Part shown: one piece after another, positions 27,921-58,739 of the stretch
Layout: each line of letters opens with the position of its first letter
Position numbering within the stretch: position 1 is the stretch's first letter
NCBI GenBank assembly: GCA_964016885.1
Contig: OZ024759.1
Location: forward strand, 4,216,001-4,280,000
Length of the DNA: 64,000 nt
Source of the DNA: Eledone cirrhosa
Taxonomy: Eukaryota
Direction of reading: 5' to 3'
Made by a program: the position numbers and the translations under genes
The notes under the pieces: model-generated
The model's database searches: none
Told to the model about the DNA's origin: nothing
The model's input: only the letters and a program-made list of their open reading frames with translations

Positions 27921-27980
27921 TAACAGTCACAGTTTGTAGAGATTAACAACTAAAGTTTGAATGAATAAAGATCAACAGAC

Positions 27981-28130: not shown

Positions 28131-28560
28131 CTGAAATGAGAAGTGTAAATATATATATATATATATATATATATCATCATCATCATCATCAACGTTTAAC
28201 GTCCGTGTTCCACGCTTGCATGGGTTTGGACGGGGGTATTCCCACTTGAGGCAAGAGTGATTGTCTTGCTCGCATAGGACTGTCTGGCAGGTTTTCTACA
28301 GTTGGATGCCCTTCCTAACACCAACCACATTTACAGTGTGGGACTGGGAGGTTTTTACCGTAATATACATATATAATATATATATAATATATATATAATA
28401 TATATATATAATATACATATATAATATATATATATAATATATATATATATAATATACATATATAATATATATATAATATATATATATAATATATATATAT
28501 AATATACATATATAATATATATATAATATATATATATAATAGATATATAATATATATATA

Positions 28561-29867: not shown

Positions 29868-29944
29868 TAATATATATATATAATAAATATATAATATATA
29901 TATAATTGTTTCTACTTTTGGCACAAGGCCAGCAATGATAATGT

Positions 29945-32086: not shown

Positions 32087-32557
32087 TATATATAGGAAAA
32101 TGTATGACCCCGACGGTAGAGCTCAAGCCGTTTCGACGGCTATTTCTGGACTAAATTAGAATTTTTAGCCTGGTAAATAAATAGCCGAACTTTTCAAGGG
32201 GTACTTCCTTATATGGGAAGATTGTAGCTGTCAAGAGGATTGGTCAAAAATTCCTGGTAAACACAATTAAGTCTATCATGGCAGTGGGTGGGAGGTGGGG
32301 ATGGCTGAACTTGCCTGTAGAGCAATGAGGGAGTGGGTGGAGCCGGTCAAGCGTTGAAAGTGAAATCTAAACAGCAAATTCTAAGGATTGTGTATGAAAG
32401 TAGGCCAACTTTCATACTTTCCACCATGGCGATTGGACTGCATACCCTGCTTTCCAGGTTACCCTTTGCCACTGATATATATATATTTATATATTGAGTA
32501 CTCTGGTGCATTATGGTCCTTCTGGTTCCTTACCACACCTCCTTTGTTATATATATA

Positions 32558-32959
32558 TATAACGGCGGCGAAGATTGGAAACCGAATCTGAGCTTTCCCA
32601 CCTCTGGGACAAGCCGTGGTAAGTTGTTTACGCTCAAGAGACTAACCCCTGGGGGATGTTAAACACAGGTCAGAGGTGTTTAAGCCTGACAGAAAATAGG
32701 TCAGAGGATATATCCATCTTTCTGAGTTGTTTACGCTTGGCAAAATAATCCCTTGGGAGACTCTAACCAAAGTTCAGAGGATATATCTATCCTTCTAACT
32801 TCAACTCTTATAAATACAGGGGTTGTTTACGCCCCGACAGAAAAGAAGTGATATACAGACAACACAAGTGGCCTTTACAAGCTCTCGTCACGAAATACCA
32901 GTCCGTCACTAATTTCCACTCCTGCCTGGCTGATCGATACAACCACATATTCCGTTACA
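32558..32959 (+). repeat. 5' LTR
   Basis: TaTAACGG...CCGTTACA inverted termini; TATAAATA box at ~32809; homologous to 36151-36792. Confidence 0.75.
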
Positions 32960-32961
32960 AC

Positions 32962-32972
32962 TGGTGACCCCG
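32962..32972 (+). promoter_or_regulatory. Primer-binding site complementary to the tRNA-Trp 3' end
   Basis: TGGTGACCCCG two bases after the LTR end. Confidence 0.8.
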
Positions 32973-33109
32973 TAAAACAGACACACAACTTCTGATCATC
33001 CACTACAAACGATGTCTCTAGCACACGACGATTCATCTACAGCAGAAATGGCAGTGAGGGCGGCATTTACATTAAGAATTCCACCATTCTGGGTGCACGA
33101 TCTAACACT

Positions 33110-35759: not shown

Positions 35760-36150
35760 GTACAAATTATGCATCTGGTCGACATTTTGGCTAATTTGTA
35801 CATTTCAACGAATCGGCCAATTTCTGTGGTCATGAACTATTGCTACACACAAATCAATTAACTCTGTGCATCACCCACATCAAAAGAACAGACAAAAGAA
35901 CATTTTCCCGTTTCTATGAAATGAACGAACTTTTAATCAACAAACTTTTCGTACGAACATTTTCAATATTATGTAACATCACAGTACATTTTCCTGCATG
36001 TAAATTTCTTTTGGTTTGCATGTTTTCTTTCATGTCTCCTGTTTGTAAATGACTTTCATGTGTTTTTTTATTTTTACTGATTTTCTTCAACAACACACCT
36101 AGTCATACCTATCTTCATTTCACATGCACCTAGATCGTTCAATCTTAACT

Positions 36151-36792
36151 TGTTTACGCTCAAGAGACTAACCCCTTGGGAGAGGCTAAACGCAGGTCAG
36201 AGGTGTTTATGCCTGACAGAAAATAGGTCAGAGGATATATCCATCTTTATGACTTGTTTACGCTTGGCAAACTAATCCCTTGGGAGACTAACCAAAGTTT
36301 AGAGGATATATCTATCCTTCTAAATTCTACTCTTATAAATACAGGGATTGTTTACGCCAAAAACAGAAAAGAAGTGGGATACAGACAAGACAAGACGTTT
36401 TACAAGCTCTCGTCACGAAAAAACAGTCTACCACTTATTCTCACCTTCCTGGCTGATCGCTGACTCCTGCAATACAAATAAGTAAATATACTGATACGCC
36501 GCACACACACATTCATAGTGAGTCCAGCATTTGTACACGTATCATTCATTTCTGTTTACACGTATTATAATCGTATTCTGTGATATTTGAATTTACGTGG
36601 CTTGAAGAGCCACCAAATTATTGTATGAATATTTTGTGTCAATTATTTTATCATTCAATATTCAAATTGAATATTGTTGTAATAAAATAAACTTTGTAAC
36701 AACACTCCTGGTATTTTTCTTTACACCGAAACCACCATACCAACAGTTACATCCATCGTTGTCGTTACAACCACACATAATATTCCGTTACA
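36151..36792 (+). repeat. 3' LTR-like copy (5'-truncated, ~300 bp longer internally)
   Basis: TGTTTACGCTCAAGAGACTAACCCC matches 32625 onward; ends TATTCCGTTACA like the 5' LTR. Confidence 0.75.
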
Positions 36793-36933
36793 CCTCCGTC
36801 TATATTTCAACCACTGGAACAACCTCACACAAGAAACAGTTGTCGCACCTTCAGTCAACATTTTAATGTCAAACATCGAAATAAATGTTATGAGTGTATA
36901 TAGATAGATGTATATTGTGTGTGTGTATATATA

Positions 36934-37090
36934 CAGTAATCCCCCGCTATATCGCGGTTCACTTTTCACGGTCCCGTTACATAGCGGATATTTCTTTGGA
37001 ACGTATCTAATTTCCTATCGCGGTAATCCTCGCCACATCGCGGATTATTCGTTAGAACATATCTATTTTCTTATCGCGGTACGTCTGAGT
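36934..37090 (+). mobile_element. Tigger/pogo-like terminal fragment
   Basis: TA|CAGTAATCCCCCGCTATATCGCGG with repeated TATCGCGG subterminal motifs; no partner TIR found. Confidence 0.55.
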
Positions 37091-37529
37091 AAAAAGTGTT
37101 TAAAATTTAAACTTATTAAATAAGTTTCGATGTTATTAAAGAGTATATCGTAAGGAAGGGACATCTTAAGGCTTTAATTATGAACAAATGTTTATATTTT
37201 CATTCCATTATTGTTTTACTGATTGTGTTTTGCTCTAATCTACTATAAACCCTTCATAGATTGGTCTCTCTGTAACATGGTTGTTTCTGGAACGTATCAT
37301 GGCTTAGTGGTTAAAGCATTGGGCTTGCAATCTAAAGGTTGTGAGTTCGATTCTCGGACAGGGTGTTGTGTTGTGTCCTTGAGCAAGACACTTTATTTCG
37401 CGTTACTCCAGTTTACTCAGCTGTAGAAATGAGTTGTGATGTCACTGGTGCCAAGCTATATCAGTCATAACCTTTCTCTTGGACATATATATAGTGTATA
37501 TATACTGTACACAGTGTATATATATGTAT

Positions 37530-39170
37530 ATCATCATCACTGTTTTACGTCCCTTCTTCCATGGTAGTATGGGTTAGACAGGTTGTCCTGTTGTGGGCAG
37601 TGCCAGGTAGGGTGACCTTGTCTTGCTCAGATGGGAACCGATTTAGGCTTGATTTCTACAGCTGGATGCCCTTCCTAACACCAACCTCACAGTGAGTGAT
37701 GGGTGCTTTTTTGTTGTGACACCTCCACGGCCACTTTACAGTGAGTGGGCTGGGGCATATTGTCTATCTGCTTCAGCTTGTACCCAGGGGCTACAACACA
37801 ACCTCCTCTGCTGCACACAGCATTTGATTCCTCTTATGTTCAGTCTCTCTCTCAATTTGTTAATGCTTTACCATTCGCGTATATTACTATTACACGTCCA
37901 TCGGAGCATGCAAGCTTCGTTTCTTTCTAATCTACGCAAGTCTTCTACAGACAGTGCCCAGGTCTCACTACCATGTAGCATTGCTGTTCGTATGCACGCA
38001 TCATACTGTCTGCCTTTCATTTTGAGGGAAAAGCCTTTTGCAGCTAGCAATGGCAGTAGCTCCCTAAACTTCTTCAATCCTGTTACTGTACTTTCAGAAC
38101 ACCCACCTCCGCTGCTCATTTCGTCACCTAGGTGGCAAAAGCAGTCTACTGTTTCTACAGATCTCTCCCAGAGTTTGGTGGTGCTTGTTTCTTTAGTTCT
38201 GCCATAGATTCAGCTATAAGTGTAAGATCATCCGCATATAGGAGTTCCTATGGGCATCAGGTCGTAAACTCCTCTGTTATAGCCTGCATTACTATTATAA
38301 ACAGAAGAAGGTTAAGAACAGAGCCCTGGTGGACACCGACCTGTATGCTAAATTCCCCGCTATAGTCATTGTTAACTCTTTGCTGACTGCTCCCCTATAC
38401 ATGGCTTGTACAGCTTTCACAAGCCACTAATCTACTCTTAGTTTTCTAAGAGCCCACCAGATTATAGCACGGAGCACTCTGTTGAAGAACTTTTCCTTAT
38501 CGACAAGAGCCAGGTAGAGCGGCTTGCTTTTAGCTAGGTACTTTACCTGTAACTGCCTCACAAGGAAGAGAGCATCAGTGGTGCTTTTTCCTGGCACAAG
38601 CCCAAACTGCATCTCACCTAGTTTTACCCACTCCCTGATCAACTGTGCTATGACTCTTTCGATTACTTTCATGACCTGGTCCATCAGCTTCATACCTCTA
38701 TAGTTTATTCTATCTAGTGCATCTACTTTACCCTTGTAGCAGTTGACGATGATGTGCTGCACCAATCATTTGGTATGACACCCTCCAGTATTACCTGGTT
38801 AACAATATGTGTGGTTATTCCTTTATCTACCCATTTGTCAGCTAATAGTATACCTACACCACCCATCCCATTGTCATTTCCCACCCAGAAAAATTTATAG
38901 CACTAACTTTTGCCTACAAGGACTCTAGCGAACTCTCCTCTCCACCTAGTCTCTTGCACACAGCATACGTCAATATCCTTTCACTCTAGCATGTCTATAA
39001 TTTCTCCTTCCCTTCCTTTCATTGTGCTTATGTTGATGCTGCCGACTCAGAGTTTTGGACATTTGCCATCATTTGTGGGAAAAGGTGAATTTTTGCAGGG
39101 GAGTGTGTATGCTTCCTGTCTCTGAATTAAAGCTTTGCATGGGTGCTTGGTAACTCGCGGATTCATATTC
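37530..39170 (-). mobile_element. Degenerate, multiply deleted RTE LINE with bipartite-SINE-type 3' end
   Basis: ORFs 38427-38765 and 37868-38119 match RTE RT; endonuclease remnants ~38820-39050; (GAT)n tail at ~37530. Confidence 0.85.
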
Positions 39171-39199
39171 ATTTATTTATTCGGGTTGTTCCATTTATC

Positions 39200-39911
39200 C
39201 TTCGCTTCTCCATACATAACAGTAATCAAGTATACTTTGGTGCAGGGCTAGAAGGACAGTAGTAGTAATGACAGAGTTTGTTGGGGTTGGTAACGGCTAG
39301 AAGGACAGTAGTAGAAATGGCAGAGTTTGTTGGGGCTGGTAAGGGCTAGAAGGAGAGTAGTAGTAATGGCAGTGTTTGTTGGGGCTGGTAAGGGGTAGAA
39401 GGACAGTAGTAGTAATGACAGAGTTTGTTGGGGCTGGTAAGGGCTAGAAGGACAGTAGTAGTAATGGCAGTGTTTGTTGGGGCTGGTAAGGGCTAGAAGG
39501 ACAGTAGTAGTAATGGCAGAGTTTGTTGGGGCTGGTAATGGCTAGAAGGACAGTAGTAGTAATGGCAGAGTTTGTTGGGGCTGGTAAGGGCTAGAAGGAC
39601 AGTAGTAATAATGGCAGAGTTTGTTGGGGCTGGTAAGGGCTAGAAGGACAGAAGTAATAATGGCAGAGTTTGTTGGGGCTGGTAACGGCTAGAAGGACAG
39701 TAGTAGTAATGGCAAAGTTTGTTGGGGCTGGTAATGGGTAAGGACATGTTGCTGAGGTTTGATTGGTCAAATAGCCAATGGTGGTGAGTGGGAAATTGTG
39801 AGATAGGTAGCCATCATGACATATATCATCACAGGAGATTCGGGGGAAATAAGCAGATATAAGTAGGCATATTAGAAAAGGCAGATATGCAAGAATTTCG
39901 AAGATTGTCAC
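39200..39911 (-). CDS. Candidate signal-peptide/N-terminal exon (VTIFEILAYLPFLICLLISAYFPRISC-DDICHDGY...), interrupted by a 49-bp minisatellite
   Basis: Strong acceptor tcctttctttcaaagctag; hydrophobic leader followed by Cys/N-glycosylation-type sequence; same strand as and upstream of the lectin-EGF exons. Donor and start ATG not identified. Confidence 0.45.
39246..39735. repeat. 49-bp minisatellite, 10 copies
   Basis: Unit starts at 39246, 39295, 39344 ... 39687, exact 49-bp spacing. Confidence 0.95.
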
Positions 39912-40616
39912 CTAGCTTTGAAAGAAAGGAGAGGTAATTGCAGGGGTTAGGGATGAGTTTGTAGAGAAAGACACAATGTCCAACATAGTTTATATCAAAA
40001 CAAGGTCGAAGTATATACATTGTGGAAACAAGTGAATGATAATAATAATAATAATGTAAACAGAACATTTTGAAATTGGGGAAGAGAGATAGCTGTAGAA
40101 TAGAAATAATCTATGGAAGTCTGGGATATAAGTTATATATATATATGTTGTGATGTCACTTGTGCCAAGCTGTATCAGCCATTGCCTTTCCCTTGGACAA
40201 CATATATAGCGTATAATATATATTGTACACATCGTATATATACTATATATATTGTGTATATATACTGTAGACAGTGTATATATGATATATATATAGTATA
40301 TATATATGTAGTGATGTAACTGGTACCAAGCTGTATCAGCTATTACCTTTCCCTTGGACAACATCGGTGGCGTGGAGAGGGTAGACTGGTATACTTGGGT
40401 GACTGCTGGACTTGTGTCTCAGAAGGGAACTTTCTAGTTGCAAATCACATGGTCATTCTTGACCGACAGAGGTCTTCGATATGTTAGGTGTGTATATATA
40501 GATGTGTATTGATGTCCATGTGGGAGTCATTGATACCAATGCTAGGGATGGCTGGTCTTCTATATTACTGTATAACACCAAAGATCTCGATCCTGTGTCA
40601 TTGTCTTAGAGAAGTG

Positions 40617-42205
40617 CAATTGTGTGAGGTCAGCTGTTATCACCTCATCCCAGGTCTTCCTACTTCATATCTTCCATCAATTGTGTGAGGTCAGCTTTTA
40701 TCACCTCATCCCAGGTCTTCCTACTTCATAGCTTCCATCAATTGTGTCAGCTCAGCTATTATCACCTCATCCCAGGTCTTCCTACTCCATAGCTTCCATC
40801 AATTGTGTCAGGTCAGCTGTTATCACCTCATCCCAGGTCTTCCTACTTCATAGCTTCCATCAATTGTGTGAGGTCAGCTATTATCACCTCATCCCAGGTC
40901 TTCCTACTCTATAGCTTCCATCAATTGTGTCAGGTCAGCTTTTATCACCTCATCCTAGGTCTTCCTACTTCATAGCTTCCATCAATTGTGTGAGGTCAGC
41001 TTTTATCACCTCATCCCAGGTCTTCCTACTTCATAGCTTCCATCAATTGTGTCAGGTCAGCTGTTATCAACCCATCCCAGGTCTTCCTTCTCTATAGCTT
41101 CCATCAATTGTGTCAGGTCAGCTTTTATCACCTCATCCCAGGTCTTCCTACTTCATAGCTTCCATCAATTGTGTTAGGTTAGCTTTTATCACCTCATCCC
41201 AAGTCTTCCTTCTCTATAGCTTCCATCAATTGTGTCAGGTCAGCTTTTATCACCTCATCCTAGGTCTTCCTACTTCATAGCTTCCATCAATTGTGTCAGG
41301 TCAGCTTTTATCACCTCATCCCAGGTCTTCCTACTTCATAGCTTCCATCAATTGTGTAAGGTCAGCTTTTATCACCTCCTCCCAGGTCTTCCTACTTCAT
41401 AGCTTCCATCAATTGTGTGAAGTCAGCTTTTATCACCTCAGACTAGGTATTTTTACTCCATAGCTTCCATCAGTTGTGTGAGGTCAGCTTTTATCACCTC
41501 ATCCCAGGTCTTCCTACTCCATAACTTCCATCAATTGTGTGAGGTCAGCTTTTATCACCTCAAACTAGGTCTTCCTACTTCATAGCTTCCATCAATTGTG
41601 TAAGGTCAGCTTTTATCACCTCATCCCAGGTCTTCCTACTCCATAGCTTCAATCAATTGTGTCAGGTCAGCTTTTATCACCTCATCCCAGGTCTTCCTAC
41701 TTCATAGCTTCCATCAATTGTGTCAGGTCAGCTTTTATCACCTCATCCCAGGTCTTCCTACTCTATAGCTTCCATCAATTGTGTAAAGTCAGCTTTTATC
41801 ACCTCATCCCAGGTCTTCCTACTTCATAGCTTCCATCAATTGTGTGAAGTCAGCTTTTATCACCTCAGACTAGGTCTTCGTACTCTATAGCTTCCATCAA
41901 TTGTGTCAGGTCAGCTTTTATCACCTCAAACTAGGTCTTCCTACTCCATAGCTTCCATCAATTGTGTGAGGTCAGCTTTTATCACCTCAAACCAGGTCTT
42001 TTTACTCCATAGGTTCCATCAATTGTGTAAGGTCAGCTTTTATCACCTCATCCCAAGTCTTCCTACTTCATTGCTTCCATCAATTGTGTCAGGTCAGCTT
42101 TTATCACCTCATCCCAGGTCTTCCTACTTCATAGCTTCCATCAATTGTGTCAGGTCAGCTATTATCACCTCATCCCAGGTCTTCCTACTTCATAGCTTCC
42201 ATCAA
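40617..42205. repeat. 61-bp satellite (~26 copies) derived from the RTE ORF C-terminal region
   Basis: Unit CAATTGTGTCAGGTCAGCTTTTATCACCTCATCCCAGGTCTTCCTACTTCATAGCTTCCAT; reverse strand reads RKTWDEVIKADLTQL; flank 40530-40617 continues the RTE sequence. Confidence 0.92.
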
Positions 42206-42308
42206 ATTTATAAAATGCTTGAAAACAACTTAGAAAAAATGTTACTCAAAATCAAAATTTAATCCCAAAGAGAGGAAATTGGAACATTATCCACTGAAAG
42301 TTGCTTAA

Positions 42309-42777
42309 CCCTTTAGTGTCCAAACCAGCCAAAACTGGCCAGAATTCTCTACCTCTTTCTGTTGAAACTGGCTGTAACTGGTCGCTCAGACTGATGTTAA
42401 GGTATTGTTCTCAAAATAAATACTTTCAAAATCTGATAGATTCAATATTATGTGAGATAAAGCCTTTACCATGAAAATATAATAGTATATATAAAATAAT
42501 GTGAATGCTAAAGGGTTAACCCTTTAACATTTAAACCGGCAATAACTGGCCAGAGTTCTGTCCTCTTTTTCTTTTTAAACCACTCGTAACTGGCCACTCA
42601 TACTGATGTTAAAGTATTGTTCTCAATATAAATAATATCAGATTCGATATTATGTGAGGTAAAGACTTTGCCATGGAAATATAATAGTATATATAGAGTA
42701 ATGTAAATGTTATGTGAGATAAAGACATTACCATGGAAATATAATAGTATATATAGAATAATGTAAATGTTAAAGGC
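42309..42777 (+). mobile_element. Two tandem TTAA MITEs sharing one TTAA (monomer 42309-42515; copy 42520-42777 with the 60-bp unit doubled)
   Basis: TTAA|CCCTTTAG...GCTAAAGGG|TTAA|CCCTTTAACATTTAAA...GTTAAAGGC|TTAA. Confidence 0.85.
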
Positions 42778-43570
42778 TTAAACCCTGAAGAAAGGACTTT
42801 TAGGTCCCGAAATATTGGACAGATAAAAGAACAACAACAAAAAAACAAAACAAAGATTACCAGGTAACTTTTACTTTTCCTTACCTCATCTTATTGTCCA
42901 TTTTGCATTGTTTAGCCTTCTATCTCTTTCAACGTTATATTTTATATAGAATGCTTCAAACAAACTACAACATTTAATTATATATCATCATCATCATCTT
43001 CAATTAACGTCCATCTTCCACACTAGCATGTGTTAGACGGGTCCCATTTAGAGGCAAGTGTGGGCTGGATGCTTTTTTGCTGTCTTCTACACGTCCAGTG
43101 TGGGTGAGATATATATATATGTGTATGTATATATCATCACCATTTAGCGTCCATTTTTCCATTCTTGCATGGGTTAGACGGGTCATCCACGCCAGGAGGC
43201 AAGTCTGGCCAGGGTTGGCCATGTGTCGCACCTTGCTCAGGTGAGGTCTGTAAATTTGGTGGGGTACATTACAGCTGGATTCCCTTCCTAACATCAACCA
43301 TGTTTACAGTGTGGAACTGGATGGCTCTGTTATGAGGAGGGACAGGCCAGTTGGCTGCACTGAACTCGTCTCACAGTGGAACTATAATTTTGGGGGCCTG
43401 GTACTGGGTGGTACCACTGTGAGGAGGGGTAGCCAGTCAGCTGCTCCAAACTCATCTCACGAGGTTACCACAGTTTTGGGGCCCTGTACTAGGGGCTATA
43501 GTGATGGTGTAGCTAGTTTATATGAATAAGTAAATCTGACGCAGGTATATTTCTACAGTTTACCAATGTA

Positions 43571-43704
43571 CCGTACTTACTGGCGCCAATGACGACCAAT
43601 TTTTGAAAAAAAATAATAATCAACCTTCGGCCTCCAGGACATATGGTAGATATTTTGGACTTATATTAGGGAAAAAGTAATGTCTTCGATGCTAGGAAAT
43701 ATGG
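43571..43704. mobile_element. pogo-like MITE (short relative of 9185-9757)
   Basis: Shares TTCGGCCTCCAGGA..ATGGTAGAT and degenerate TIRs. Confidence 0.6.
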
Positions 43705-44370
43705 TGAAAATGTAAAATTTCCACTGTTAAATCTATCCCTGCATTTTAAGTATTCTCTATTATCTCATACTGTTACTTTCTTATAAGTCCTATAAGAATG
43801 CAATTTTTGCTAAACTGCCATAGAGCAGACCTCTGAAGTGATAGAAGGATATAATTTATAGAGCATGCTGGAATACCACTGCTTACATTGGAGAGAATTT
43901 CTCTGGACAGAATGTTGATATCTACAGTTTACCAATATAGAAATATAACATTTCCACTGTTAAATCTATCTCTGCTTCTAAAGTATTCTCTATTATCTCA
44001 TACTGTTTCTTTCTTATTTCAGAATATCAGATGACATTGGGATAAATTATTATTTTCAATCTTGGATACATCATCTCTATTTATCATCATTTGAAGACTA
44101 AAACCTTCTAAACAGAACTTATATAACACTGTTTATATAAATCTATAGTTCAATTACTGTGAAATATTTCCTCAAAACTGAGTTTATTTTCTTCACTATA
44201 AGATGGTTTTGTATTTTAACTAAACTTGGATGAAACAGAAGTTTGTATTATCTTCAGATATTAACTGAAATCACAGTTGAGGGAAATATAGAAGAATATT
44301 TTATAAGAAATATAATATAAAAAATATTACAAGAAAAACATCTGTATATTCTGTTGAAGAAGAAATCATT

Positions 44371-45090
44371 ATGCCAAATAAATTGACAAAGAAGATTAAA
44401 TGTGAAACACAATCTAAAGTGTTTAGTATTGCTGGTGAGATGACAAAGGTTAGAGAAAAGAAGCCATATCACTGTGATATCTGTGATAAATCATTCTCTC
44501 AAAGTGGTACCTTAACTACTCACAAACGTATACATACAGGAGACAAGCCATATCACTGTGATATCTGTGGTATATCATTCTCTGGGAAAAGTAGCCTAAC
44601 TACTCACAAATGTATACATGCAGAAGAGAAATCATAATGCATTGACATCAGTGATAAATCCTTCTCTCAAATTTGTGAATTAATGAGAATACAAATACAT
44701 ATCATTGTAACATCTTAGGGAAATCCTTCTCTTTGAATGTTACATTAACTACACACACACATATACATACAGCTGGGAAGCCATATCACTTTGATATATT
44801 TGGTACATCATTCTCTAAATGTTGTGGCTTCACTAGACACCAACATCTACAGGAGAGGAACCATATCACTGTGATGTCTGTGATAAATCCTTCTCTAAAT
44901 GTTGTGGTTTCACTAGACACCAACATATACATACAGGAGAGGAACCATATCACTGTGATGTCTGTGATAAATCCTTCTCTAAATGTTGTGGTTTAATTAG
45001 ACACTAACATATACAGGAGAGGAACTATATCACTGTGATGTCTGTGGTACATCTTTCTCTTATAAAGATTACTTAATGCAACACAATTAG
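44371..45090 (+). pseudogene. Decayed tandem C2H2 zinc-finger gene (two intact fingers, then a stop and about six damaged or frameshifted fingers)
   Basis: [41 protein letters not shown]..., TAA at 44635-44637; likely acceptor tttcttatttcag at ~44022. Confidence 0.85.
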
Positions 45091-45184
45091 ATAAAAACCA
45101 TGTCACTCACCTAAAATAGTGCCATCAATGTTGTTAATATTTTGAATAAACCTGTTTTACTAAGAAATTCTCCTTTCATTTTAT

Positions 45185-46300
45185 GTCTGTACAAACACAG
45201 TCTTCTCTCTTACACACCACTTCAGCTCACTCTTAAACCCAGCTTCTTCTTCAACTTGTCCAAGCTCTCCCTTTCTCTCACACTTACACAACATATCCTA
45301 CAAAGCATGGTTGTTTCATATCTCTCCAGTCTACATAACCTCTGCAGTCACAGCCCTTATTTCGTTACCATGCATCATTGCATATCACCCACATGTGTCA
45401 TACAGTTGTCCTTTTGTACAGAGAGAGAGAAACCTTTTGTGGTCAACTGTTGCAGTAGCTCTCTAAACTTTTTCCATCCTATCCTTATTCTAGCTATACA
45501 TCTTTCAGAGCAGCCCCCTCCACTTCTAATTAACTCACCTAGATTGCAAAATATATTTGTCAGCATACTTTATGAAGGGTCTGTTTGGAAGTGCCTCGCC
45601 TAATAAACAATGGTGCCATAACTGGACTCAGAAACCAATGGTCACACATACATGGTAAGTTAGCTAAGAACGTAGGTTTTACATTGGTTCACTGCGCTGG
45701 AGAAGTAAGCAGCAATCAAGTTTAGGAGACAAGCTCTATCAAATATTTAAAGGGTTCCATAGAAGCAGTTGACAGTTTCTGTTACCTGGGGTATCAAATA
45801 AGCAGTGGAGGTAGGTGTTCTGAAAGTACAGTAACAAGAGTAAGAACAAGATGGCAGAGGTTTAGGGTGTTACTACTGCTGCTAGCTACAAAAGGTTGTT
45901 TCACCAAATTGATGTGTGCATATAAACAGCAATGCTGCATTGCAGTGAGGACCCCAGAAGATTGGATAGAAATGAAGCTTGAATTCTCCGATGGATGTGT
46001 AATATTAATATACATGAAGGGGAAAGTGTAAATAAACTGAGAGAGAACCTGGGCATGAGAGGGAAAAGATACAGTATGCAGGAGAGGAGATTGCTGTGGT
46101 ATGGACATGTGATGTGTATGAAGGTAGAGATGCTGTATAAAAGGTTGACCACTTGAAATTGATGGAAGAGGAAGACCTAGGAATGCTTGGGATGTGGAGG
46201 TAAAAACTGACCTGACACCATTGTACCTCTCAAAGGTGATGACACAGGATTGAAATCTCTGGCATTATACAGTACTGCAGGAGACCTGCATTCCCATGTG
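45185..46300. mobile_element. Two old RTE 3' fragments (minus ~45185-45600, plus ~45770-46300)
   Basis: SGGGCSE..IARIRIGWKKFRELL-type peptides on both strands. Confidence 0.75.
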
Positions 46301-47814
46301 CACGGGTTGACACAACATTTAGTGGTTTGAAGTATGCTCCAATTTTCCTCCCTTTCACATCTTAACACTCCACCCCCTTACCAGCTAAGTACACCACCCT
46401 GACCTACCTCTCCAATCCCCACTCTACATACACACAACCCCACCCCCACTTTCACATCTGATACACCTCTCTTGACCAACCCATGTATACAAGTAAGGAA
46501 AGCTTAACATTATCTCCTCCAATGCTGCTGAAATGGCTAAAAGCCCTCAGGCAACCCTGTAAGGTGGTCATGCAGGTGTCATGACAAAAGAACACTGAGT
46601 CCTCTCTGTTAGGTAACATGACAAAAGAACACCTAACCCTCCCTGCAAGGTAGTCATGCTGATGACATGACAAATAAGCACCCAGTCCACCCTGTGAGGT
46701 AGACATGACAGAAGGCCCCTAGCCCACTCTGTAAAGTAGTCATGCTAGTGGCAAGACTGAAGGGACCCGAAGCACCCTTCAAAGTGATCAAATTGGTGAC
46801 ATGACTTGACACCATTTTTTAGTTTACTTCTAAAATATCTCATTTTTATTTTACTTCTAAACTATCTCATATATTTAAAAATTACTTTTTAAAGATTATT
46901 TAAAATTTTTTAATATTTTTTAATATTTTTTAAATATTTTTAAACATTTTAAATAGTTTAAGTACTTTTTAAGTATTTTATTTTGTTAAAAGGGTTTTTT
47001 GAGTATCTTCTGAGATTAAAAAAAATTTTTTTTTTTATTTTTCCAGAAATTTTTTCCAGAACTTTTAATATTTTAATATTTTTAATATTTTTTAATTATT
47101 TAATATTAGAGTTATAACCAATAACTAATTCTGGCTATATATATCTTTCAACATTTATATCTTCGTCAAAATGGTCTCATACTAACTAATAAATAAACAA
47201 AGCTGGGTTTTTCAGTATCTTCCTAATTTAAAACATTAAAAACATATAAATAATCTTATTAACTCAGTTAATTTAATTACTTACACTAAATATAAACCAG
47301 TATCCCTCATAACTTATTAAAACAATTATCTATAACATGATATAGCCATTTATCCACTCATATATCTATTCTTCTATCTATTGATTCTCCTATTTTCTAC
47401 TTTATATCTATTTATTTTCAATTTATTATTCAATGTCTTTATATATATTTATTTTTTCTATATATCTATTTTTCTATATACTTATAATAGTAAATATTAT
47501 ATTGTATTATATTAGAATTCTAACAATAATTAGTAAATATACGTAACATTAATATAAACGTAATACTTATTTACGTTACATGAGTTCATAAATGTCTTTC
47601 TTCTCTCTATCTCTCTATCTATCTCATAACAGTAATTTTTTTCTCTCTCTTTCTTCTCTTTCTTCCCTATCTTTCCCCAGCGTAATTTAAATAAACGGTT
47701 GTTTTTTCAATTTTTCATACATTCATTTGCATATTCACACATAACTTTGAATTACCCCTAATAAGTTTCCCCTATCCAGCGAATTTCCGACCGTTATTTA
47801 TAAAACAAATTTTG

Positions 47815-47879
47815 TATTTTATCTGATGAAAGAGCACCAAGATTGACTTGGTCGCCCTTGAAATATATATAATAAAATA
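47815..47879 (+). ncRNA. Minimal type I hammerhead ribozyme, copy 1
   Basis: TATTTTAT-CTGATGA-AAGaGCACCAAG attga CTTGGTcGCcCTT-GAAA-TATATA-TA-ATAAAATA; 8-bp stem I; predicted cut after 47871. Confidence 0.75.
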
Positions 47880-49035
47880 AATATGCAAAAGTTCTATTTA
47901 AATTGTTGGGATACAACAAGCAAATATGTTTATAACTGATATAAAGCACTCAACAAGTATTTGGAATAAACATACGATATTAACAATCCTTTTGTATTTT
48001 ATGTACTCAATTATATTATGTACTATATTGATTTATACTTCTCTCTATATGTGAGTATATATGTATATGTGTATATTGACATACATGTACATGCGTTCTA
48101 TGCATTTTTATGAATATATTGACATACATGTACATGCGTTCTATGCATTTTTATGAATATATGTCTGTCTGTATGTATGCATGCGTGACGCGAATCTACC
48201 AATTGGCTGAGGATGCACACACATGTATATATATGTATATGTAAGAATTGTGTGTGTACATGTACATGTATACCCATACAATTTGATTGCAGATAGACAT
48301 TACTAACAGCCATAAATGCATACCAGCTAATCTTATATATTTATATATATATATTAAAAACATTTTTTATAAAAAATATTTTATTTAATGACACAAAGGA
48401 TGGATAACATTAAATTAAAAATTCATTTATGCTTTGTATGTATATATTATATACGTGGTTAGATATGGTGTGTATTTTGTGAGTGTGTGTGTATATATAT
48501 ATTTATGTGTATTTTTGCGTGTGTGTACGTGTTATATGATATGTAGTTCTCTAGCAATATATAGATTTCTTAATGTTTAGATTCCAAGTTTTAATATATT
48601 GATCTCAATTTTTAAACTAAATATCTAATCATAGTTAAACAATGATTAATTTCTCATATTATGTATGTATATTCCATTCATGATTATTAATATTTCTAAT
48701 TTTATTTATTCATTTCATCTCAATTGTTAAGTTAACTTAATATGACATGACTTAATGTGTTCATTCTTTCCCCCTCTCTCTATCTCTATATTTTTCTCTC
48801 TGTCTGGTGTTTTGATATATCTCTCTCGTTTTTCTCTCCTTTTTCTTTTTTCTTGTTTTCTTTCTTTCTTTCTCCCTTTTCTCTCTCTCCGTCCTTTTCC
48901 TTATCTGTAACACAACGACTTATTTTAAAAATACTAATATAAGTAAACAACTCCACTATCCCTGAGTCTTCCAAAAGTAACGGTTGCATTTTGTAAGGGT
49001 ATGTCAATATTTATTTATAAAACTGTTATATATTG

Positions 49036-49100
49036 TATTTTGTCTGATGAAAGCATACCATAATTTAACATGGTATCCTTGAAATATGTATAATGAAATA
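49036..49100 (+). ncRNA. Minimal type I hammerhead ribozyme, copy 2
   Basis: TATTTTGT-CTGATGA-AAGcATACCAT aatttaac ATGGTATcCTT-GAAA-TATGTA-TA-ATGAAATA; predicted cut after 49092. Confidence 0.75.
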
Positions 49101-49168
49101 GATATGGTTTTATAAATATAGTTTCCATTTGTTAATATCGTATAATAAAATAAATATAATTTTATAAA

Positions 49169-49480
49169 TCATCATCACCGTTTTACGTCCGTTCTTCCAT
49201 GCTAGCATGGGTTAGACGGGTTGTCCTGTTGTGGGCAGTGTCTGGTCGGCTGACCATGCCTTGCTCATACAGGAACTGATTTTGGCTTTTCTACAGCCGG
49301 ATGCCCTTCCTAACACCAACCTCATTTACAGTGAGTGTTGGGTGCTTTTTTCCGTGGCGCCTATACGTCCACTTTACAGTGTGGGCTGGGTGCTTTTTTT
49401 GTGTGGCACCTCCACGACCACTTTGCAGTGGGAGGGTGTGGGGTCATATTGTCTATATGCTTCAGCTTGAACCCATGGGA
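49169..49480 (-). mobile_element. RTE-derived bipartite SINE-like element
   Basis: GGTGTTAGGAAGGGCATCCGGCTG plus the RTE tail CCCGTCTAACCCATGCTAGCATGGAAGAACGGACGTAAAAC; similar copies at ~1060-1222, ~28172-28362 and ~42985-43310. Confidence 0.75.
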
Positions 49481-49758
49481 GGTCGGGTACTCTGTATTAC
49501 TGCGTGACGCCAGAGGTCACGGTCGTGTGTCATCGCCTTTGAGAGGTGTGTGTTTATATATATATATATACAAATAAATTATCGAGAATCGGAATCTCGG
49601 CCCATGAAATAATGAAACACAATCAAAGTGCTCAATAGTTTGGATAAACCAGAGCTATAACTAACGTTTAAATACCAACACACTGAGATAATGCTTAAAA
49701 TCATTCGCACAGCCGAAAAAAACGACCAAGAAAATTCGGGTCAGACAAATAATAAATA

Positions 49759-52700
49759 TATCATCATCATCATCATCATCATCATCATTTTACGTCCGCT
49801 TTTCCCTGCTTGCAAGGGTGGGACGGGTCTTATTCAGCACAGCATCTCTCCACTCGTCACGGTCCCTCGTCATCTCCACCGTGAGCTTCAATGATCTGAG
49901 GTCTGTTCTCACCACCTCCGCCCATGTTTTTCGTGGTCTACCTCTACTACGTCTTCCTTCAACTGGCATTTCCTGGCACTTCTTCACCCATCGGTCATCC
50001 TCCATGCGCATCACATGTCCATACCACCTCAGTCTCCTCTCCCGTACACTACATTCTATCCTTCTCAGACACAGTTTCTCTCTCAACACATTTATGCTGG
50101 GTCGTTCACGCACATTTACACTGCACATCCAACGGAGCATGCTTGCCTCATTTCTCTCCAGCCGTCGCATATCTTCTGCGGTAGCTGCCCATGTCTCACT
50201 ACCATGCAGCATCGCGCTCCTCACACAGGCATCATACAACCGGCCTTTCGTATGCAGGGAGAAACCCTTCTTCGTCAACAGAGGAAGCAGCTCCCTAAAC
50301 TTCTTCCAACCCGTCCTTATTCTAGATACTATGGCCTCGGAACACCCTCCTCCCATGCTAATCTGATCTCCTAGGTACCGGAAGCTATCCACCACTTCTA
50401 TAGCGCCCTCTCGCATTTGAAAAATGTGTCTATCAGTGCGACTTCTACTGTCTAATTTCCCTGTACATCTACTGCATACATATTTCTCCCTACCTGTTAG
50501 TTTGCCTGCTATCCCGCTACATCTCTTGTGTACCCAGGACCTACATTGTGTGCATTTTATAGAATTTATGCCAGTTCCTTTTCTGCATATCGAACATGGC
50601 CATTTCCCTGACGGAATCAGGGTTTTGTCCTCTTTTCTACTCATCAACACTTTTGTCTTAGCTAGATTTACTCTCAGTCCTCTTGCTTCCAACTGCTGTT
50701 TCCATAGCCGGAATTTATTCTCTAGCTCCTCTACTGATTCTGCCATAAGAGCCAGATCGTCAGCATAGAGAAGTTCCCATGGACAGCCAGTCTTAAACTC
50801 CTCTGTTATGGCTTGGAGGACTATAATGAACAAGAGCGGGCTGAGGACCGAACCCTGATGTACTCCTACTTGTATCTGGAATTCCTCACTAAACTCCATT
50901 CCTACCCTGACTTTACTGAGAGTACCTCTGTACAAAGTTTGCACTGTCCTTACAAGCCATTCCTCAACACCCAGCTTCCTTAGGGACCACCAGATGACAG
51001 ATCGGGGTACCCTATCAAAGGCCTTCTCTAGGTCAACAAAGGCCAAGTATAGTGGCTTATTCTTCTCTAAGAACCTCTCTTGCATTTGTCTCACCAAGAA
51101 GAGGGCATCTGTTGTACTCTTCCCAGGCACAAAACCAAACTGCATCTCATCTAGTTTGACCCTTTCTCTAATTAGTTGTGCTAAAATCCTTTCTGCCACT
51201 TTCATAACCTGATCTATCAGTTTTATACCCCTATAATTGCTCCTCTCCAAAGCATCCCCTTTACCTTTGTAGCAATTTATGAGAATACTGCTGCACCAGT
51301 CTTTGGGTATGACACCACCATATATAGCCTGATTGATTATGCGTGCAACCAGTTTAGTGCCTACGTCCCCTGATGCCTTCAGCATCTCAGCAACTATTCC
51401 CGATGGTCCGGCCGCCTTACCATTTTTCATTTCCCTAATCGCCTCTTGGACCCTATATTCGTCAATCTCAATAGCTGGTCCCTCTGTCGGATCTACCAAG
51501 GGTAATTTCTCTCTCTCCCATTCGTTCTCCACATTCATCAGTCTCTCATAATGGCATTTCCAGGCCTCCTTTTTCTGGTCATTCGTGACACTAAGTACAC
51601 CGGCATCATCCCGGACACATTTATCACCAACAACATCCTGATTTGCATTGACACACTGCCTTGCAATGTGGAACACCGCACGCCTCTGATCTTCCCGTCG
51701 CAGAACATTGGCAAACCTCCTACTCTCTGCCTCCCTGCGTGCTAAGTACACCTGACGTCTAGCTTCTCTCTTAGTGGCTGTATATTCTTCCCTACTCCCA
51801 CCCTTATTCCAAGCCTTCCATGCTAGTCTTTTGTCTCTAATAGCCTTATCTACACTGCTGTTCCACCACCAGGTCACTCTCTGTCTGGTTGGGGCTCTGC
51901 TCCAGCCACAAGTTTCATCAGTAGCCTTCAGCAAGTTGTCACGTAAGAACTTCCAGTTATTATCTATGTCATACGTCTCTAAATCGTCTTCTTTTTCGTC
52001 ATATACATCTTGAAGGGCTTTCCTAAATTTGAATTTTAGTGAAAGGTCTTTTAGCTTCCAGACCTTTCTTCTCCACACCTTCCTATATGGCTCATTCCAT
52101 CTCTTGCTTACTGAGATATCACTAACAACTAACCTATGCTGTGGGGTACATTCTTCCCCAGGGTATGCCTTGGTATTAGACACTATCTGCCTGTCCCGCT
52201 GCCTAACTAGCAGGAAGTCAATCTGGCTTATGTGCTCACCAGATTTGTAGGTTATTAGGTGATTGGCAGGTTTCTGGAAGTTTGTGTTGCAAATAGTCAA
52301 TGTACTTGCATCACAAAATTCAAGAAGTCTCACTCCTTCTTCATTTCTTGAACCGTAACCATGCCCACCATGTACCCCAGTGTAACCATTCTGGAGCTGT
52401 CCAACATGACCATTGAAGTCTCCTGCTAGCATAACGATGTCTCCGTCCTCTGTCATTGTGGTTGTTTGCAAAAGTTGCTCATAAAAGCAGTCTTTCTCAT
52501 CTTTGCCTAGGCCTGCTTGGGGAGCATAGACCGAGATGATTGTCAGTAGTCTCCTACCTACAACTAATCTAAGCTTAATTATTCGATTACTAACTCGAAC
52601 TACCTCTATTGTCTTATTGATCCATTTCTCAGCCAGGAAAATGCCTACTCCCCCTAACCCATCATCCTTACCTACCCAGAATAGCTTATAGCTAAGACGC

Positions 52701-53053
52701 TTGCCTACGACTAGTCTCGCAGAGGCACCTCTCCATCTCACCTCTTGCACGCAGCACACATCCACCTGCCTTCTCTCCAGCATCTCCGCTATTTCAGCAG
52801 ATCTACCTCTGAGAGTGCCAACATTAAGTGTTGCAACTCTGAGATGCGACGTCTTCATATTTTTTTCTATGCTGTTTTGTTGCTGTGCTGATAAGCTTTT
52901 TGGCATTGATACACTGGTTGGATGCCCTTCCTAACACCAGCGCCACTTTACAGCATGGACTGGGTGCTTTTATTTGTGCCACCAGCACTAGAGAGGATGT
53001 CTTACTAGACTCAAGGGCCCTCTCTACCCCTCCATTTTACAGCATGGTCATTT
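49759..53053 (-). mobile_element. Full-length RTE-clade LINE
   Basis: Short 5'UTR, single intact ORF, (GAT)n tail; no TSD recognised. Confidence 0.92.
49790..52906 (-). CDS. RTE ORF: APE endonuclease + reverse transcriptase with inserted PHD finger, 1038 aa, uninterrupted
   Basis: LNVGTL, VQEVRW, YAPQ, GDFNGH, SQIDF, PQH; DLEKAFD, GVHQGSVLSP, LYADD, FRYLG; C4HC3 motif at 50465-50596. Confidence 0.95.
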   Translation of the reverse strand: MPKSLSAQQQNSIEKNMKTSHLRVATLNVGTLRGRSAEIAEMLERRQVDVCCVQEVRWRGASARLVVGKRLSYKLFWVGKDDGLGGVGIFLAEKWINKTIEVVRVSNRIIKLRLVVGRRLLTIISVYAPQAGLGKDEKDCFYEQLLQTTTMTEDGDIVMLAGDFNGHVGQLQNGYTGVHGGHGYGSRNEEGVRLLEFCDASTLTICNTNFQKPANHLITYKSGEHISQIDFLLVRQRDRQIVSNTKAYPGEECTPQHRLVVSDISVSKRWNEPYRKVWRRKVWKLKDLSLKFKFRKALQDVYDEKEDDLETYDIDNNWKFLRDNLLKATDETCGWSRAPTRQRVTWWWNSSVDKAIRDKRLAWKAWNKGGSREEYTATKREARRQVYLARREAESRRFANVLRREDQRRAVFHIARQCVNANQDVVGDKCVRDDAGVLSVTNDQKKEAWKCHYERLMNVENEWEREKLPLVDPTEGPAIEIDEYRVQEAIREMKNGKAAGPSGIVAEMLKASGDVGTKLVARIINQAIYGGVIPKDWCSSILINCYKGKGDALERSNYRGIKLIDQVMKVAERILAQLIRERVKLDEMQFGFVPGKSTTDALFLVRQMQERFLEKNKPLYLAFVDLEKAFDRVPRSVIWWSLRKLGVEEWLVRTVQTLYRGTLSKVRVGMEFSEEFQIQVGVHQGSVLSPLLFIIVLQAITEEFKTGCPWELLYADDLALMAESVEELENKFRLWKQQLEARGLRVNLAKTKVLMSRKEDKTLIPSGKWPCSICRKGTGINSIKCTQCRSWVHKRCSGIAGKLTGREKYVCSRCTGKLDSRSRTDRHIFQMREGAIEVVDSFRYLGDQISMGGGCSEAIVSRIRTGWKKFRELLPLLTKKGFSLHTKGRLYDACVRSAMLHGSETWAATAEDMRRLERNEASMLRWMCSVNVRERPSINVLREKLCLRRIECSVRERRLRWYGHVMRMEDDRWVKKCQEMPVEGRRSRGRPRKTWAEVVRTDLRSLKLTVEMTRDRDEWRDAVLNKTRPTLASREKRT

Positions 53054-57009: not shown

Positions 57010-58700
57010 CTAGTGACTATCAGACATAGTGTATCTAGGATCACATTATCTAATGTACAGTACAGTAGTTAGTATTAGTGGCTATAAGACATAGTTTATC
57101 TAGGACTACATTATCTAATGTACAGTACAGTAGTTAGTATTAGTGGCTATAAGACATAGTATATCTAGGACTACATTATCTAATGTACAGTATAGTGGCT
57201 ATCAGACATAGTGTATCTAGGACTCCATTATCTAATGTACAGAATAGTGGCTATCAGACATAGTGTACCTAGGACTACATTATCTAATGTACAGTATAGT
57301 GGCTATCAGACATAGTGTACCTAAGACTACATTGTCTAATGTACAGTATAGTGTCTATCAGACATAGTGTATCTAGGACTACATTGTCTAATGTACAGTA
57401 TAGTGGCTATCAGTCATAGTGTACCTAGGACTACATTATCTAATGTACAGTATAGTGGCTATCAGACATAGTGTATCTAGGACTACATTATCTAATGTGC
57501 AGTATAGTGGCTGTAAGACATAGTATATCTAGGACTACATTATCTAATATACAGTATAGTGGCTATCAGACATAGTGTATCTAGGACTACATTATCTAAT
57601 GTACAGTATAGTGGCTGTAAGACATAGTGTATCTAGGACTACATTATCTAATGTACAGTATAGTGGCTATCAGACATAGTGTATCTAGGACTACATTATC
57701 TAATGTACAGTATAGTGGCTATCAGACATAGTGTATCTAGCACTACATTATCTAATGTACAGTATAGTGTCTATCAGACATAGTGTACCTAGGACTACAT
57801 TATCTAATGTACAGTATAGTGGCTATCAGACATAGTGTATCTAGGACTACATTATCTAATGTACAGTATAGTGGCTGTAAGACATAGTATATCTAGGACT
57901 ACATTATCTAATGTACAGTATAGTGGCTATCAGACATAGTGTATCTAGCACTACATTATCTAATGTACAGTATAGTGTCTATCAGACATAGTGTATCTAG
58001 GACTACATTGTCTAATGTACAGTATAGTGGCTATCAGTCATAGTGTACCTAGGACTACATTATCTAATGTACAGTATAGTGGCTATCAGACATAGTGTAT
58101 CTAGGACTACATTATCTAATGTACAGTATAGTGGCTGTAAGACATAGTATATCTAGGACTACATTATCTAATATACAGTATAGTGGCTATCAGACATAGT
58201 GTATCTAGGACTACATTATCTAATGTACAGTATAGTGGCTGTAAGACATAGTGTATCTAGGACTACATTATCTAATGTACAGTATAGTGGCTATCAGACA
58301 TAGTGTATCTAGGACTACATTATCTAATGTACAGTATAGTGGCTATCAGACATAGTGTATCTAGCACTACATTATCTAATGTACAGTATAGTGTCTATCA
58401 GACATAGTGTACCTAGGACTACATTATCTAATGTACAGTATAGTGGCTATCAGACATAGTGTATCTAGGACTACATTATCTAATGTACAGTATAGTGGCT
58501 GTAAGACATAGTATATCTAGGACTACATTATCTAATGTACAGTATAGTGTCTATCAGACATAGTGTATCTAGGACTACATTATCTAACGTACAGTATAGT
58601 GTCTATCAGACATAGTGTACCTAGGACTACATTGTCTAATGTACAGTATAGTGTCTATCAGACATAGTGTACCTAGGACTACATTGTCTAATGTACAGTA
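57010..58700. repeat. 52-bp minisatellite (~32 copies) with a 624-bp higher-order duplication
   Basis: Unit TAGTGGCTATCAGACATAGTGTATCTAGGACTACATTATCTAATGTACAGTA; rare variants recur 624 bp apart. Confidence 0.95.
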
Positions 58701-58739
58701 TAGCAGTTAGTATTTGTGGCTATCATTATTATAGACTTC

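What the first reader, a model, noticed from the sequence alone, without database searches (positions are those of the whole stretch)
47815..49100. Pair of covarying hammerhead ribozymes 1221 nt apart in an AT-rich non-coding tract
Seen: two same-strand motifs with intact CTGATGA and GAAA boxes, 8-bp stem I, palindromic mini stem III (TATATA/TATGTA) and a UA cleavage site. Stem II differs in sequence but keeps pairing (ACCAAG/CTTGGT versus ATACCAT/ATGGTAT). Both are preceded by TTATTTATAAAAC and a pyrimidine tract. Established: minimal type I hammerheads occur in Penelope-like element repeats and retrozymes and can cleave as dimers. Inference: this may be a non-coding ribozyme-bounded element that releases a ~1.2-kb RNA, possibly circularisable, or two old Penelope pseudo-LTRs.
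Basis: partly seen in the sequence, partly recalled or inferred. Interest (0 to 1): 0.72.

Follow-up and report, generated by a model that had tools for sequence, protein, structure and literature searches.

The report
Two nested Penelope retrotransposon hammerhead ends
The two hammerhead-ribozyme motifs are real, but they are the tail ends of two broken copies of a very common Penelope-type jumping gene, one inserted into the other's ribozyme, so their 1.2-kb spacing is likely an accident rather than a new ribozyme-bounded element.

Summary
They do not bound one element. The motif has at least 19,029 copies in this 3.0-Gb genome. It is the 3' hammerhead of Hydra-clade Penelope-like elements: full copies carry a 742-745-aa ORF with a TERT-like fold and a GIY-YIG-like C-terminus. 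Motif 2 ends a 5'-truncated copy (B, 47985-49144) that has an inverted 3' tail (47881-47986). B sits inside motif 1, which ends a sister-family copy (A), between two copies of a 17-bp target duplication. Five paralogous loci show the empty site. The pair recurs 25 times only inside a segmental array, where it drifts. None of 107 other fetched loci holds both bodies. Cleavage and transcription are untested. A chance A/B dimer that cuts a read-through RNA from an upstream zinc-finger frame is not excluded. This scan has already described this hammerhead family elsewhere in the same genome (e1-10310536, e1-9570883). Verdict: ordinary nested transposon debris.

The parts
46813..47884 (+). Element A: 5'-truncated 3' UTR of a Hydra-clade Penelope-like element (family A), interrupted at its hammerhead by element B
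   Evidence: 79-89% BLASTN identity over 0.9-1.3 kb to six dispersed copies, L149-L151 and L154-L156; three of them (L149, L154, L155) carry ORF remnants upstream, 56-75% identical to the family B ORF in the main matches. Homology was traced to 46813; the exact 5' truncation point was not fixed.
47815..47879 (+). Hammerhead A (type I): stem I 47815-47822/47872-47879, CUGAUGA 47823-47829, stem II 47830-47859, GAAA 47860-47863, predicted cut after A47871
   Evidence: cleavage untested
47868..47884 (+). Left copy of the target-site duplication (17 bp; 14-17 bp allowing for microhomology), covering hammerhead A's stem III end, cut site and stem I 3' arm
   Evidence: longest shared string of the two flanks; single copy at the empty sites L145, L146, L147, L152, L153
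47881..47986 (-). Inverted 3'-terminal piece ('tail') of element B: family positions about +37 to +141 after the hammerhead cut site, ending at the family's long 3' end
   Evidence: 88-95% identity to the sequence downstream of family B hammerheads, in the opposite orientation
47985..49144 (+). Element B body: 5'-truncated 3' UTR of Hydra-clade family B, ending at the family's short 3' end (about +48)
   Evidence: 76-87% over 0.9-1.25 kb (gapped) to the 3' UTR of ORF-bearing copies L033, L102-L105, L108, L110, L111, L115, L116; 95-96% over a 236-nt core to dispersed copies
49036..49100 (+). Hammerhead B (type I): CUGAUGA 49044-49050, G12 49081, predicted cut after A49092
   Evidence: core and stem II identical to dispersed copies L002, L003, L020, L021; cleavage untested
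49141..49157 (+). Right copy of the target-site duplication
49158..49169 (+). Remainder of element A resuming after B, cut off by another repeat at about 49168
   Evidence: the same continuation and the same flanking repeat at the five empty sites

Best explanation
The two hammerhead motifs are the 3' ends of two 5'-truncated copies of sister families of Hydra-clade Penelope-like retroelements, the second of which lies inside the first one's hammerhead between target-site duplications, so the 1221-nt spacing is likely an accident of nested insertion. Shown: family membership of both 3' UTRs, the inverted tail, the duplication, the empty sites, and the recurrence of the pair only within a segmental array. 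Inferred mechanism: in a full-length element (pLTR-hammerhead, 186 nt to ATG, 742-745-aa RT plus GIY-YIG ORF, about 1.5-kb 3' UTR, hammerhead) the two hammerheads, 3.7-4.3 kb apart, likely pair through the 8-nt palindromes as a double hammerhead and cut after AUA to free a unit-length RNA. The GIY-YIG domain likely nicks (TA)n DNA and the RT primes there, giving a truncated body plus an inverted 3' piece. Element B's endonuclease likely used the TATATATA of hammerhead A's stem III as a minimal (TA)n target, with staggered nicks 14-17 nt apart. Later segmental duplication copied the composite about 25 times. Both copies lack an ORF and are likely dead as retroelements.
For: 19,029 exact motif copies, control 0; 44,881 copies of the 3' half-motif. 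B body aligns to the 3' UTR of ORF-bearing copies. The ORF has RWR, DKT, YRDD, CxCX5C, CxxC and CxH motifs and one Cys between VVY and YVG, matching the Hydra definition in PMC8557442 section 11. Its AlphaFold model (pLDDT 88) has TERT as top Foldseek hit, E 1.6e-9. A sister-family ORF piece hits Pfam GIY-YIG at E 1.5e-4, just under the cut-off. 17-bp duplication. Five of 13 fetched A relatives are empty-site paralogs with the same right flank. 64 of 69 family ends abut TA runs. Among the first 100 motif hits, the 17 neighbours within 5 kb are 11 divergent, 6 same-strand at unrelated spacings (285-4905 nt), none near 1.2 kb. Of 107 loci outside the array, 13 hold the A body, 50 the B body, 0 both (loci were picked by my searches and some overlap). 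A and B share only the hammerhead region and one 32-nt patch.
Against: No phylogeny with labelled Hydra references was built, so the clade rests on motifs. The units (3.7-4.3 kb) are longer than the 'generally <3 kb' of described Hydra elements, and the tail (about 93 nt) is longer than the 30-40 bp described. RWK reads RWR. Full-length ORFs gave no RT or GIY-YIG Pfam hit, and the alignment profile had no PDB sequence hit. Rfam has no match to the motifs. All 24 array copies aligned keep hammerhead B's core boxes and most keep A intact, which also fits recent duplication or selection.
Confidence: 0.92

Rival explanations
1. The pair arose by accident but is now functional. A read-through transcript from the C2H2 zinc-finger frame 3-4 kb upstream (same strand) lets A and B fold as a hetero-double hammerhead, cut at both sites and release a 1221-nt RNA with 5'-OH and 2',3'-cyclic phosphate, which RtcB could close into a circle.
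For: The palindromes are compatible: the A/B 8-bp duplex is predicted at -3.2 kcal/mol, equal to A/A. Both cores are intact and sense to a zinc-finger frame at 44281-44637. About 25 copies exist. Dimeric cleavage and RtcB circularisation are shown for axolotl and mussel retrozymes (PMC7229834 passages).
Against: The monomer active folds are 2.9 kcal/mol less stable than open stem III, and the AU-only dimer helix must close a 1.2-kb loop. The metazoan PLE hammerheads tested cleave poorly even as dimers (PMC4209133). Five AATAAA lie between the zinc-finger stop and hammerhead A. Among 24 array copies, 9 carry U->C at the base of B's stem II, one (L050) has lost A's cut site, one (L046/L157) has a LINE of about 2.5 kb in the interval, and spacing varies by about 90 nt.
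Confidence: 0.05
2. One reading: a mobile, non-coding element bounded by two hammerheads (a long retrozyme of about 1.2 kb) that propagates through its own RNA circle.
For: Two intact same-strand hammerheads without an ORF between them; the configuration recurs 25 times. Earlier scan notes report true tandem retrozymes with other units in this genome (unchecked here).
Against: All recurrences fall in the segmental array with shared flanks. The interval is internally inverted and bounded by a target duplication, and empty sites exist. The motifs belong to different subfamilies with unrelated 3' UTRs. There is no tandem array, unlike the 150-450-bp repeats of PMC7229834.
Confidence: 0.02
3. The two motifs are the upstream and downstream pseudo-LTRs of one internally deleted Penelope-like element.
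For: Full elements do carry two same-strand hammerheads (L031, L105, L106, L108, L109).
Against: In those elements the two motifs are near-identical and the upstream one is followed by the tail in sense orientation. Here the motifs are 78% alike, the tail is inverted, and a target duplication flanks B.
Confidence: 0.01

Closest known systems
Hydra clade of C-terminal EN+ Penelope-like elements, including Hydra-1_Obim of Octopus bimaculoides (Craig et al. 2021, PMC8557442; read: Introduction, section 11, passages, supplementary file part 2 and search passages)
   Same: Single RT + C-terminal GIY-YIG ORF; DKT, CxCX5C linker, no CCHH, CxxC and CxH near the C-terminus; sense-strand type I hammerhead near the 3' end; (TA)n insertion; pLTRs, inverted 5'-truncated copies, one-sided tail.
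   Different: A different family from Hydra-1_Obim, whose hammerhead (ctgaagag atgtcta...gaa acca a tggt t) is unlike this one by eye. Units are 3.7-4.3 kb with a 3' UTR of about 1.5 kb, against generally <3 kb. The tail is about 93 nt against 30-40 bp. RWR stands for RWK. Stem II is long and interrupted; stem III is AU-only. Tens of thousands of motif copies.
Minimal/dimeric type I hammerheads of metazoan PLEs (Cervera and de la Pena 2014, PMC4209133; read: parts 1-2 of 4)
   Same: Long helix II, palindromic helix III, mostly solitary motifs from truncated copies, close opposite-strand pairs, rare same-strand pairs 3-4 kb apart around an ORF.
   Different: The first pair of stem II is A-U rather than the conserved G10.1-C11.1; stem I is 8 bp rather than 4-5.
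Metazoan non-LTR retrozymes (Cervera and de la Pena 2020, PMC7229834, passages; Li, Clavereau and Pollet bioRxiv 10.64898/2026.07.22.740005, part 1 of 5)
   Same: Type I hammerheads in low-GC non-coding DNA that could in principle cut twice and give a circle.
   Different: No head-to-tail units, two different subfamily motifs, an internal inversion, and direct continuity with protein-coding PLE 3' UTRs.

Membership tests
Type I hammerhead ribozyme | CUGANGA and GAAA boxes with an NUH cut site | tested here: met
   both motifs; AUA in 61 of 66 distinct family strings (strings selected on the two boxes)
Type I hammerhead ribozyme | Three helices round the core, with covariation | tested here: met
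   97.8% of 465 cells paired; 3 of 15 pairs with two-sided changes, all in stem II; 24 such cells against 9.6 shuffled and 0-5 in slid controls. Relatedness inflates these counts; stems I and III show no two-sided change.
Type I hammerhead ribozyme | G10.1-C11.1 pair at the base of stem II | tested here: not met
   A-U in 31 of 31 distinct rows; many Hydra motifs in File S2 of PMC8557442 also deviate here
Type I hammerhead ribozyme | Match to an Rfam hammerhead model | tested here: not met
   none at gathering threshold or at E<=10
Type I hammerhead ribozyme | Self-cleavage as monomer or dimer | not testable with these tools
   energy estimates only
Penelope-like elements (EN+) | Single ORF with a TERT-related RT | tested here: met
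   in full-length relatives, not in the window: 742-745 aa, YRDD, top fold match TERT 3du5_A at E 1.6e-9
Penelope-like elements (EN+) | C-terminal GIY-YIG endonuclease | tested here: met
   VVY...YVG with invariant R646, H650, E705, N717; PF01541 at E 1.5e-4 (22.4 bits, cut-off 22.6) on a sister-family piece and no hit on the full ORFs
Penelope-like elements (EN+) | pLTR partial tandems, inverted 5'-truncated copies and a one-sided tail | tested here: met
   five loci with same-strand spacing 3676-4263 nt; two discrete 3' ends near +48 and +141; 11 of 17 close pairs divergent
Hydra clade | DKT motif, CxCX5C linker, no CCHH, CxxC and CxH around the conserved E and N | tested here: met
   DKT 118, CNCRNKSNC 601, CDLC 699, CRH 726, one Cys between VVY and YVG
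Hydra clade | RWK motif | tested here: inconclusive
   RWR at residue 37, a conservative variant
Hydra clade | Insertion into (TA)n | tested here: met
   64 of 69 ends
Hydra clade | Generally shorter than 3 kb (a tendency, not a strict definition) | tested here: not met
   3.7-4.3-kb units
Hydra clade | Placement in the clade on an RT phylogeny | not tested
   no labelled reference proteins were held as sequences; similarity to Hydra-1_Obim was judged by eye
Metazoan non-LTR retrozyme | Head-to-tail tandem units of 150-450 bp, each with a hammerhead | tested here: not met
   no such array at this locus or among the first 100 motif hits
Metazoan non-LTR retrozyme | The hammerhead-to-hammerhead unit is itself mobile | tested here: not met
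   found only in the segmental array; 0 of 107 other loci hold both bodies
Metazoan non-LTR retrozyme | Accumulates as circular RNA | not testable with these tools
   no RNA data were examined

The most novel reading that the evidence does not exclude
Nested insertion of one Penelope end into another's hammerhead has built a compatible hetero-double hammerhead downstream of a zinc-finger frame. Amplified about 25-fold, it cuts read-through transcripts and releases a 1221-nt circle: a retrozyme-like RNA born by accident, and a ribozyme switch in a cephalopod zinc-finger array.
Probability: 0.05. Interest if true: 0.55.

Novelty: new member of a known kind. Interest (0 to 1): 0.17.

Why it matters
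As a locus it matters little. It warns that, in a genome with tens of thousands of Penelope hammerheads whose own stem III is a TA run, same-strand 'ribozyme-bounded' pairs arise by nesting and can mimic retrozymes. The family itself did not appear in the papers found. It is a high-copy, long-UTR Hydra-clade lineage with uninterrupted ORFs, and so a usable system for the open question of what PLE hammerheads do. This scan has already noted the family elsewhere. If the hetero-dimer did cut a zinc-finger read-through RNA, it would show how retrozymes can start from PLE debris.

Tried and rejected
Rfam at gathering and E-value thresholds: no hammerhead, only microsatellite-driven miRNA noise. Loose hammerhead pattern: not above chance in the window. 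Self-targeting idea, that these elements home into relatives' hammerheads: the junction pattern gives 27 hits, of which 25 are array copies of this one event and 2 are others (not inspected closely), out of 8,008 tail ends. My estimate for uniform chance is 1-2, from 27,000-45,000 sites x 29 nt / 6e9, so no enrichment is shown; the strict pattern could miss events. The 13-bp extended stem I predicted for A was rejected as a family feature, because its outer 3' arm comes from B's inverted tail. Pfam gave no RT or GIY-YIG hit on full ORFs, and PDB sequence searches were blank. Sequencing runs: no RNA holder listed; four contig sets of one study hold the DNA. No read-level check of the junction or of RNA ends was obtained, so expression and circles stay open. 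Earlier-findings look-ups by sequence and by place returned nothing. PMC13282606 (O. vulgaris repeats, passages) lists Penelope families but has no occurrence of 'ribozyme' or 'Hydra' in its main text; its supplements and repeat library were not examined and may contain this family. Supplements of the bioRxiv preprint were not seen.

Full report
Observation. The sequence holds both motifs as described. Hammerhead A has CUGAUGA at 47823, GAAA at 47860 and a predicted cut after A47871. Hammerhead B has CUGAUGA at 49044, GAAA at 49081 and a predicted cut after A49092. The piece between the cuts is 1221 nt and 26% GC. Each motif can form an 8-bp stem I, a long interrupted stem II and a 2-bp stem III over an 8-nt self-complementary stretch. 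Rfam does not recognise them, and a loose pattern is not enriched in the window. The exact family pattern occurs 19,029 times in the 3.0-Gb genome against 0 for the control. A 5' half-pattern occurs 26,097 times and a 3' half-pattern 44,881 times. In 31 distinct copies, 97.8% of cells pair and three stem II pairs change on both sides; the slid controls fall to 41-57% paired. These copies are related, so this shows a conserved fold, not activity.

What the family is. Longer stretches round the motif revealed ORFs. A search with the C-terminal 214 aa returned 150 scored matches at 88-100% identity out of 74,589 first-look candidates. Of 16 loci chosen for long open frames or for carrying the B body, several are full length: hammerhead, 186 nt from the cut site to ATG, a 742-745-aa ORF, about 1.5 kb of 3' UTR and a second hammerhead, with same-strand spacings of 3676-4263 nt in five loci. 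The protein has RWR, DKT, YRDD, a CxCX5C linker, VVY...YVG with a single cysteine between, CxxC and CxH. These are the features by which Craig et al. 2021 define the Hydra clade of Penelope-like elements, with canonical hammerheads and (TA)n insertion; their list includes Hydra-1_Obim from Octopus bimaculoides (PMC8557442). An AlphaFold model from 83 sequences (pLDDT 88.4) has telomerase RT as its best PDB match (E 1.6e-9, TM 0.35), among other RTs. Pfam gave no RT hit and only a borderline GIY-YIG hit on a sister-family piece. Copies end at two fixed points, about 48 and 141 nt after the cut site, and 64 of 69 such ends abut TA runs. The host is likely an octopod; this is inferred from a 39% Argonauta homologue, the zinc-finger arrays and earlier scan notes, and no call names it.

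What the pair is. The segment 47985-49144 aligns along its length to the 3' UTR of ORF-bearing copies (76-87% gapped): element B, 5'-truncated. The segment 47881-47986 is the family's sequence from about +37 to +141 after the cut site, inverted and ending at the long 3' end. This is the inverted, tail-bearing piece that PMC8557442 describes for PLE insertions. The segment 46813-47884 is the 3' UTR of a sister family, A, whose dispersed copies carry ORF remnants of the same kind; A and B share only the hammerhead region and a 32-nt patch. A 17-nt string lies at 47868-47884 and again at 49141-49157, after which A's sequence resumes for 12 nt. Of 13 A relatives fetched, five (L145, L146, L147, L152, L153) are paralogous zinc-finger loci with hammerhead A, one copy of that string and the same right-hand repeat, without B. 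B therefore inserted into A's hammerhead, at the TATATATA of stem III and the cut site.

Why it recurs. A 236-nt piece of B has 24 hits at 99-100% (15 on C20, 7 on C27, 1 each on C19 and C16), and the A/tail junction has 25 such hits. On C20 they are spaced 83-212 kb apart, and the 3-kb loci align across both flanks, so they are segmental copies of one event. The full unit of the array was not aligned. The copies drift: of 24, nine have U->C at the base of B's stem II, one has lost A's cut site and one has a LINE of about 2.5 kb in the interval. Outside the array, of 107 loci fetched (50 array loci set aside), 13 hold A's body, 50 hold B's and none holds both; these loci were chosen by my searches and some overlap. 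Among the first 100 genomic motif hits, 17 neighbours lie within 5 kb: 11 divergent, 6 same-strand at 285-4905 nt, none convergent and none near 1.2 kb. Insertion into hammerheads is not detectably favoured: 3 events among 8,008 tail ends against about 1-2 by my estimate.

How it likely works (inferred). In an intact partial tandem, the two identical hammerheads probably pair through the 8-nt palindromes and cut after AUA, as proposed for PLE hammerheads, whose measured activity is low (PMC4209133). The monomer fold is predicted 2.9 kcal/mol worse than an open stem III, and the 8-bp dimer helices are predicted at -2.2 to -3.2 kcal/mol. Since inserted copies run 48 or 141 nt past the cut site, the template must include sequence beyond a hammerhead, which fits either an uncut 3' motif or a circle; this was not resolved. 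The tail holds a recurrent UUGUUG/CAACAA hairpin in most copies folded, in line with an earlier scan note. The two window copies have no ORF and are likely inert.

What is not excluded. Both cores are intact, their palindromes are compatible, and they lie sense to a two-finger C2H2 frame at 44281-44637. A read-through RNA could be cut twice. Against this stand five AATAAA between that frame and hammerhead A, the weak helix across a 1.2-kb loop, and the drift in the array. No RNA evidence was examined. I give it 5%.

Comparison and verdict. It works like, and on motifs belongs to, the Hydra-clade PLEs; it departs in unit length, tail length and the A-U base of stem II, and no tree was built. 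It is not a retrozyme: there are no tandem units and the interval is not mobile as a unit (PMC7229834; bioRxiv 10.64898/2026.07.22.740005). Four literature searches did not show this family. I reached the Hydra and nesting reading before consulting earlier scan notes (stated); those notes report the same kind of family in this genome and separate tandem retrozymes. New member of a known kind; interest 0.17.

Noticed in passing
G000 C20:3.52-5.30 Mb, C27:13.1-15.4 Mb, C16:0.55-0.68 Mb, C19:39.82 Mb: The window's locus belongs to a segmental array of about 25 copies at 94-100% identity over the 3 kb aligned, spaced 83-212 kb on C20. Older paralogs without element B lie on C18, C28 and C370. The unit size and gene content were not determined; assembly duplication was not excluded.
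   Followed up: partly
window 44281-45095 (+): C2H2 zinc-finger frame of 118 aa with two fingers, followed by degenerate 84-nt finger repeats. Paralogs L144 and L152 have a 410-aa frame with a similar start and the same C-terminus, and L146 and L153 have 322-326 aa: finger-number change within one gene family.
   Followed up: partly
window 49790-52930 (-): Uninterrupted 1046-aa LINE frame with AP endonuclease, RT and a PHD-like finger, ending at an (ATC)n tract; likely a young RTE-type element (the clade label is recalled, not tested).
   Followed up: no
window 49168-49549: A dispersed repeat of about 380 nt, 92-95% identical to copies in L005 and L006, that cut off element A's 3' end; it is present at the empty-site paralogs and so predates element B.
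   Followed up: partly
window 37300-37357 (+): tRNA-like Rfam hit (33.9 bits), likely the head of a tRNA-derived SINE.
   Followed up: no
window 40617-42205, 5453-8986, 11965-14435, 57136-58703: Minisatellite arrays of 61, 51, 72-73 and 52 nt; the 61-nt unit resembles an inverted LINE 3' segment at 46178-46223.
   Followed up: no
L036:6136-7123 (-): A second Hydra-type ORF fragment (FDVAMGSYDSADVCDL) that looks by eye closer to Hydra-1_Obim than the family studied here.
   Followed up: no
family tail; window 47881-47986 (-): A recurrent UUGUUG-N5-CAACAA hairpin about 20-40 nt before the long 3' end, with a variant that keeps pairing in L028.
   Followed up: partly
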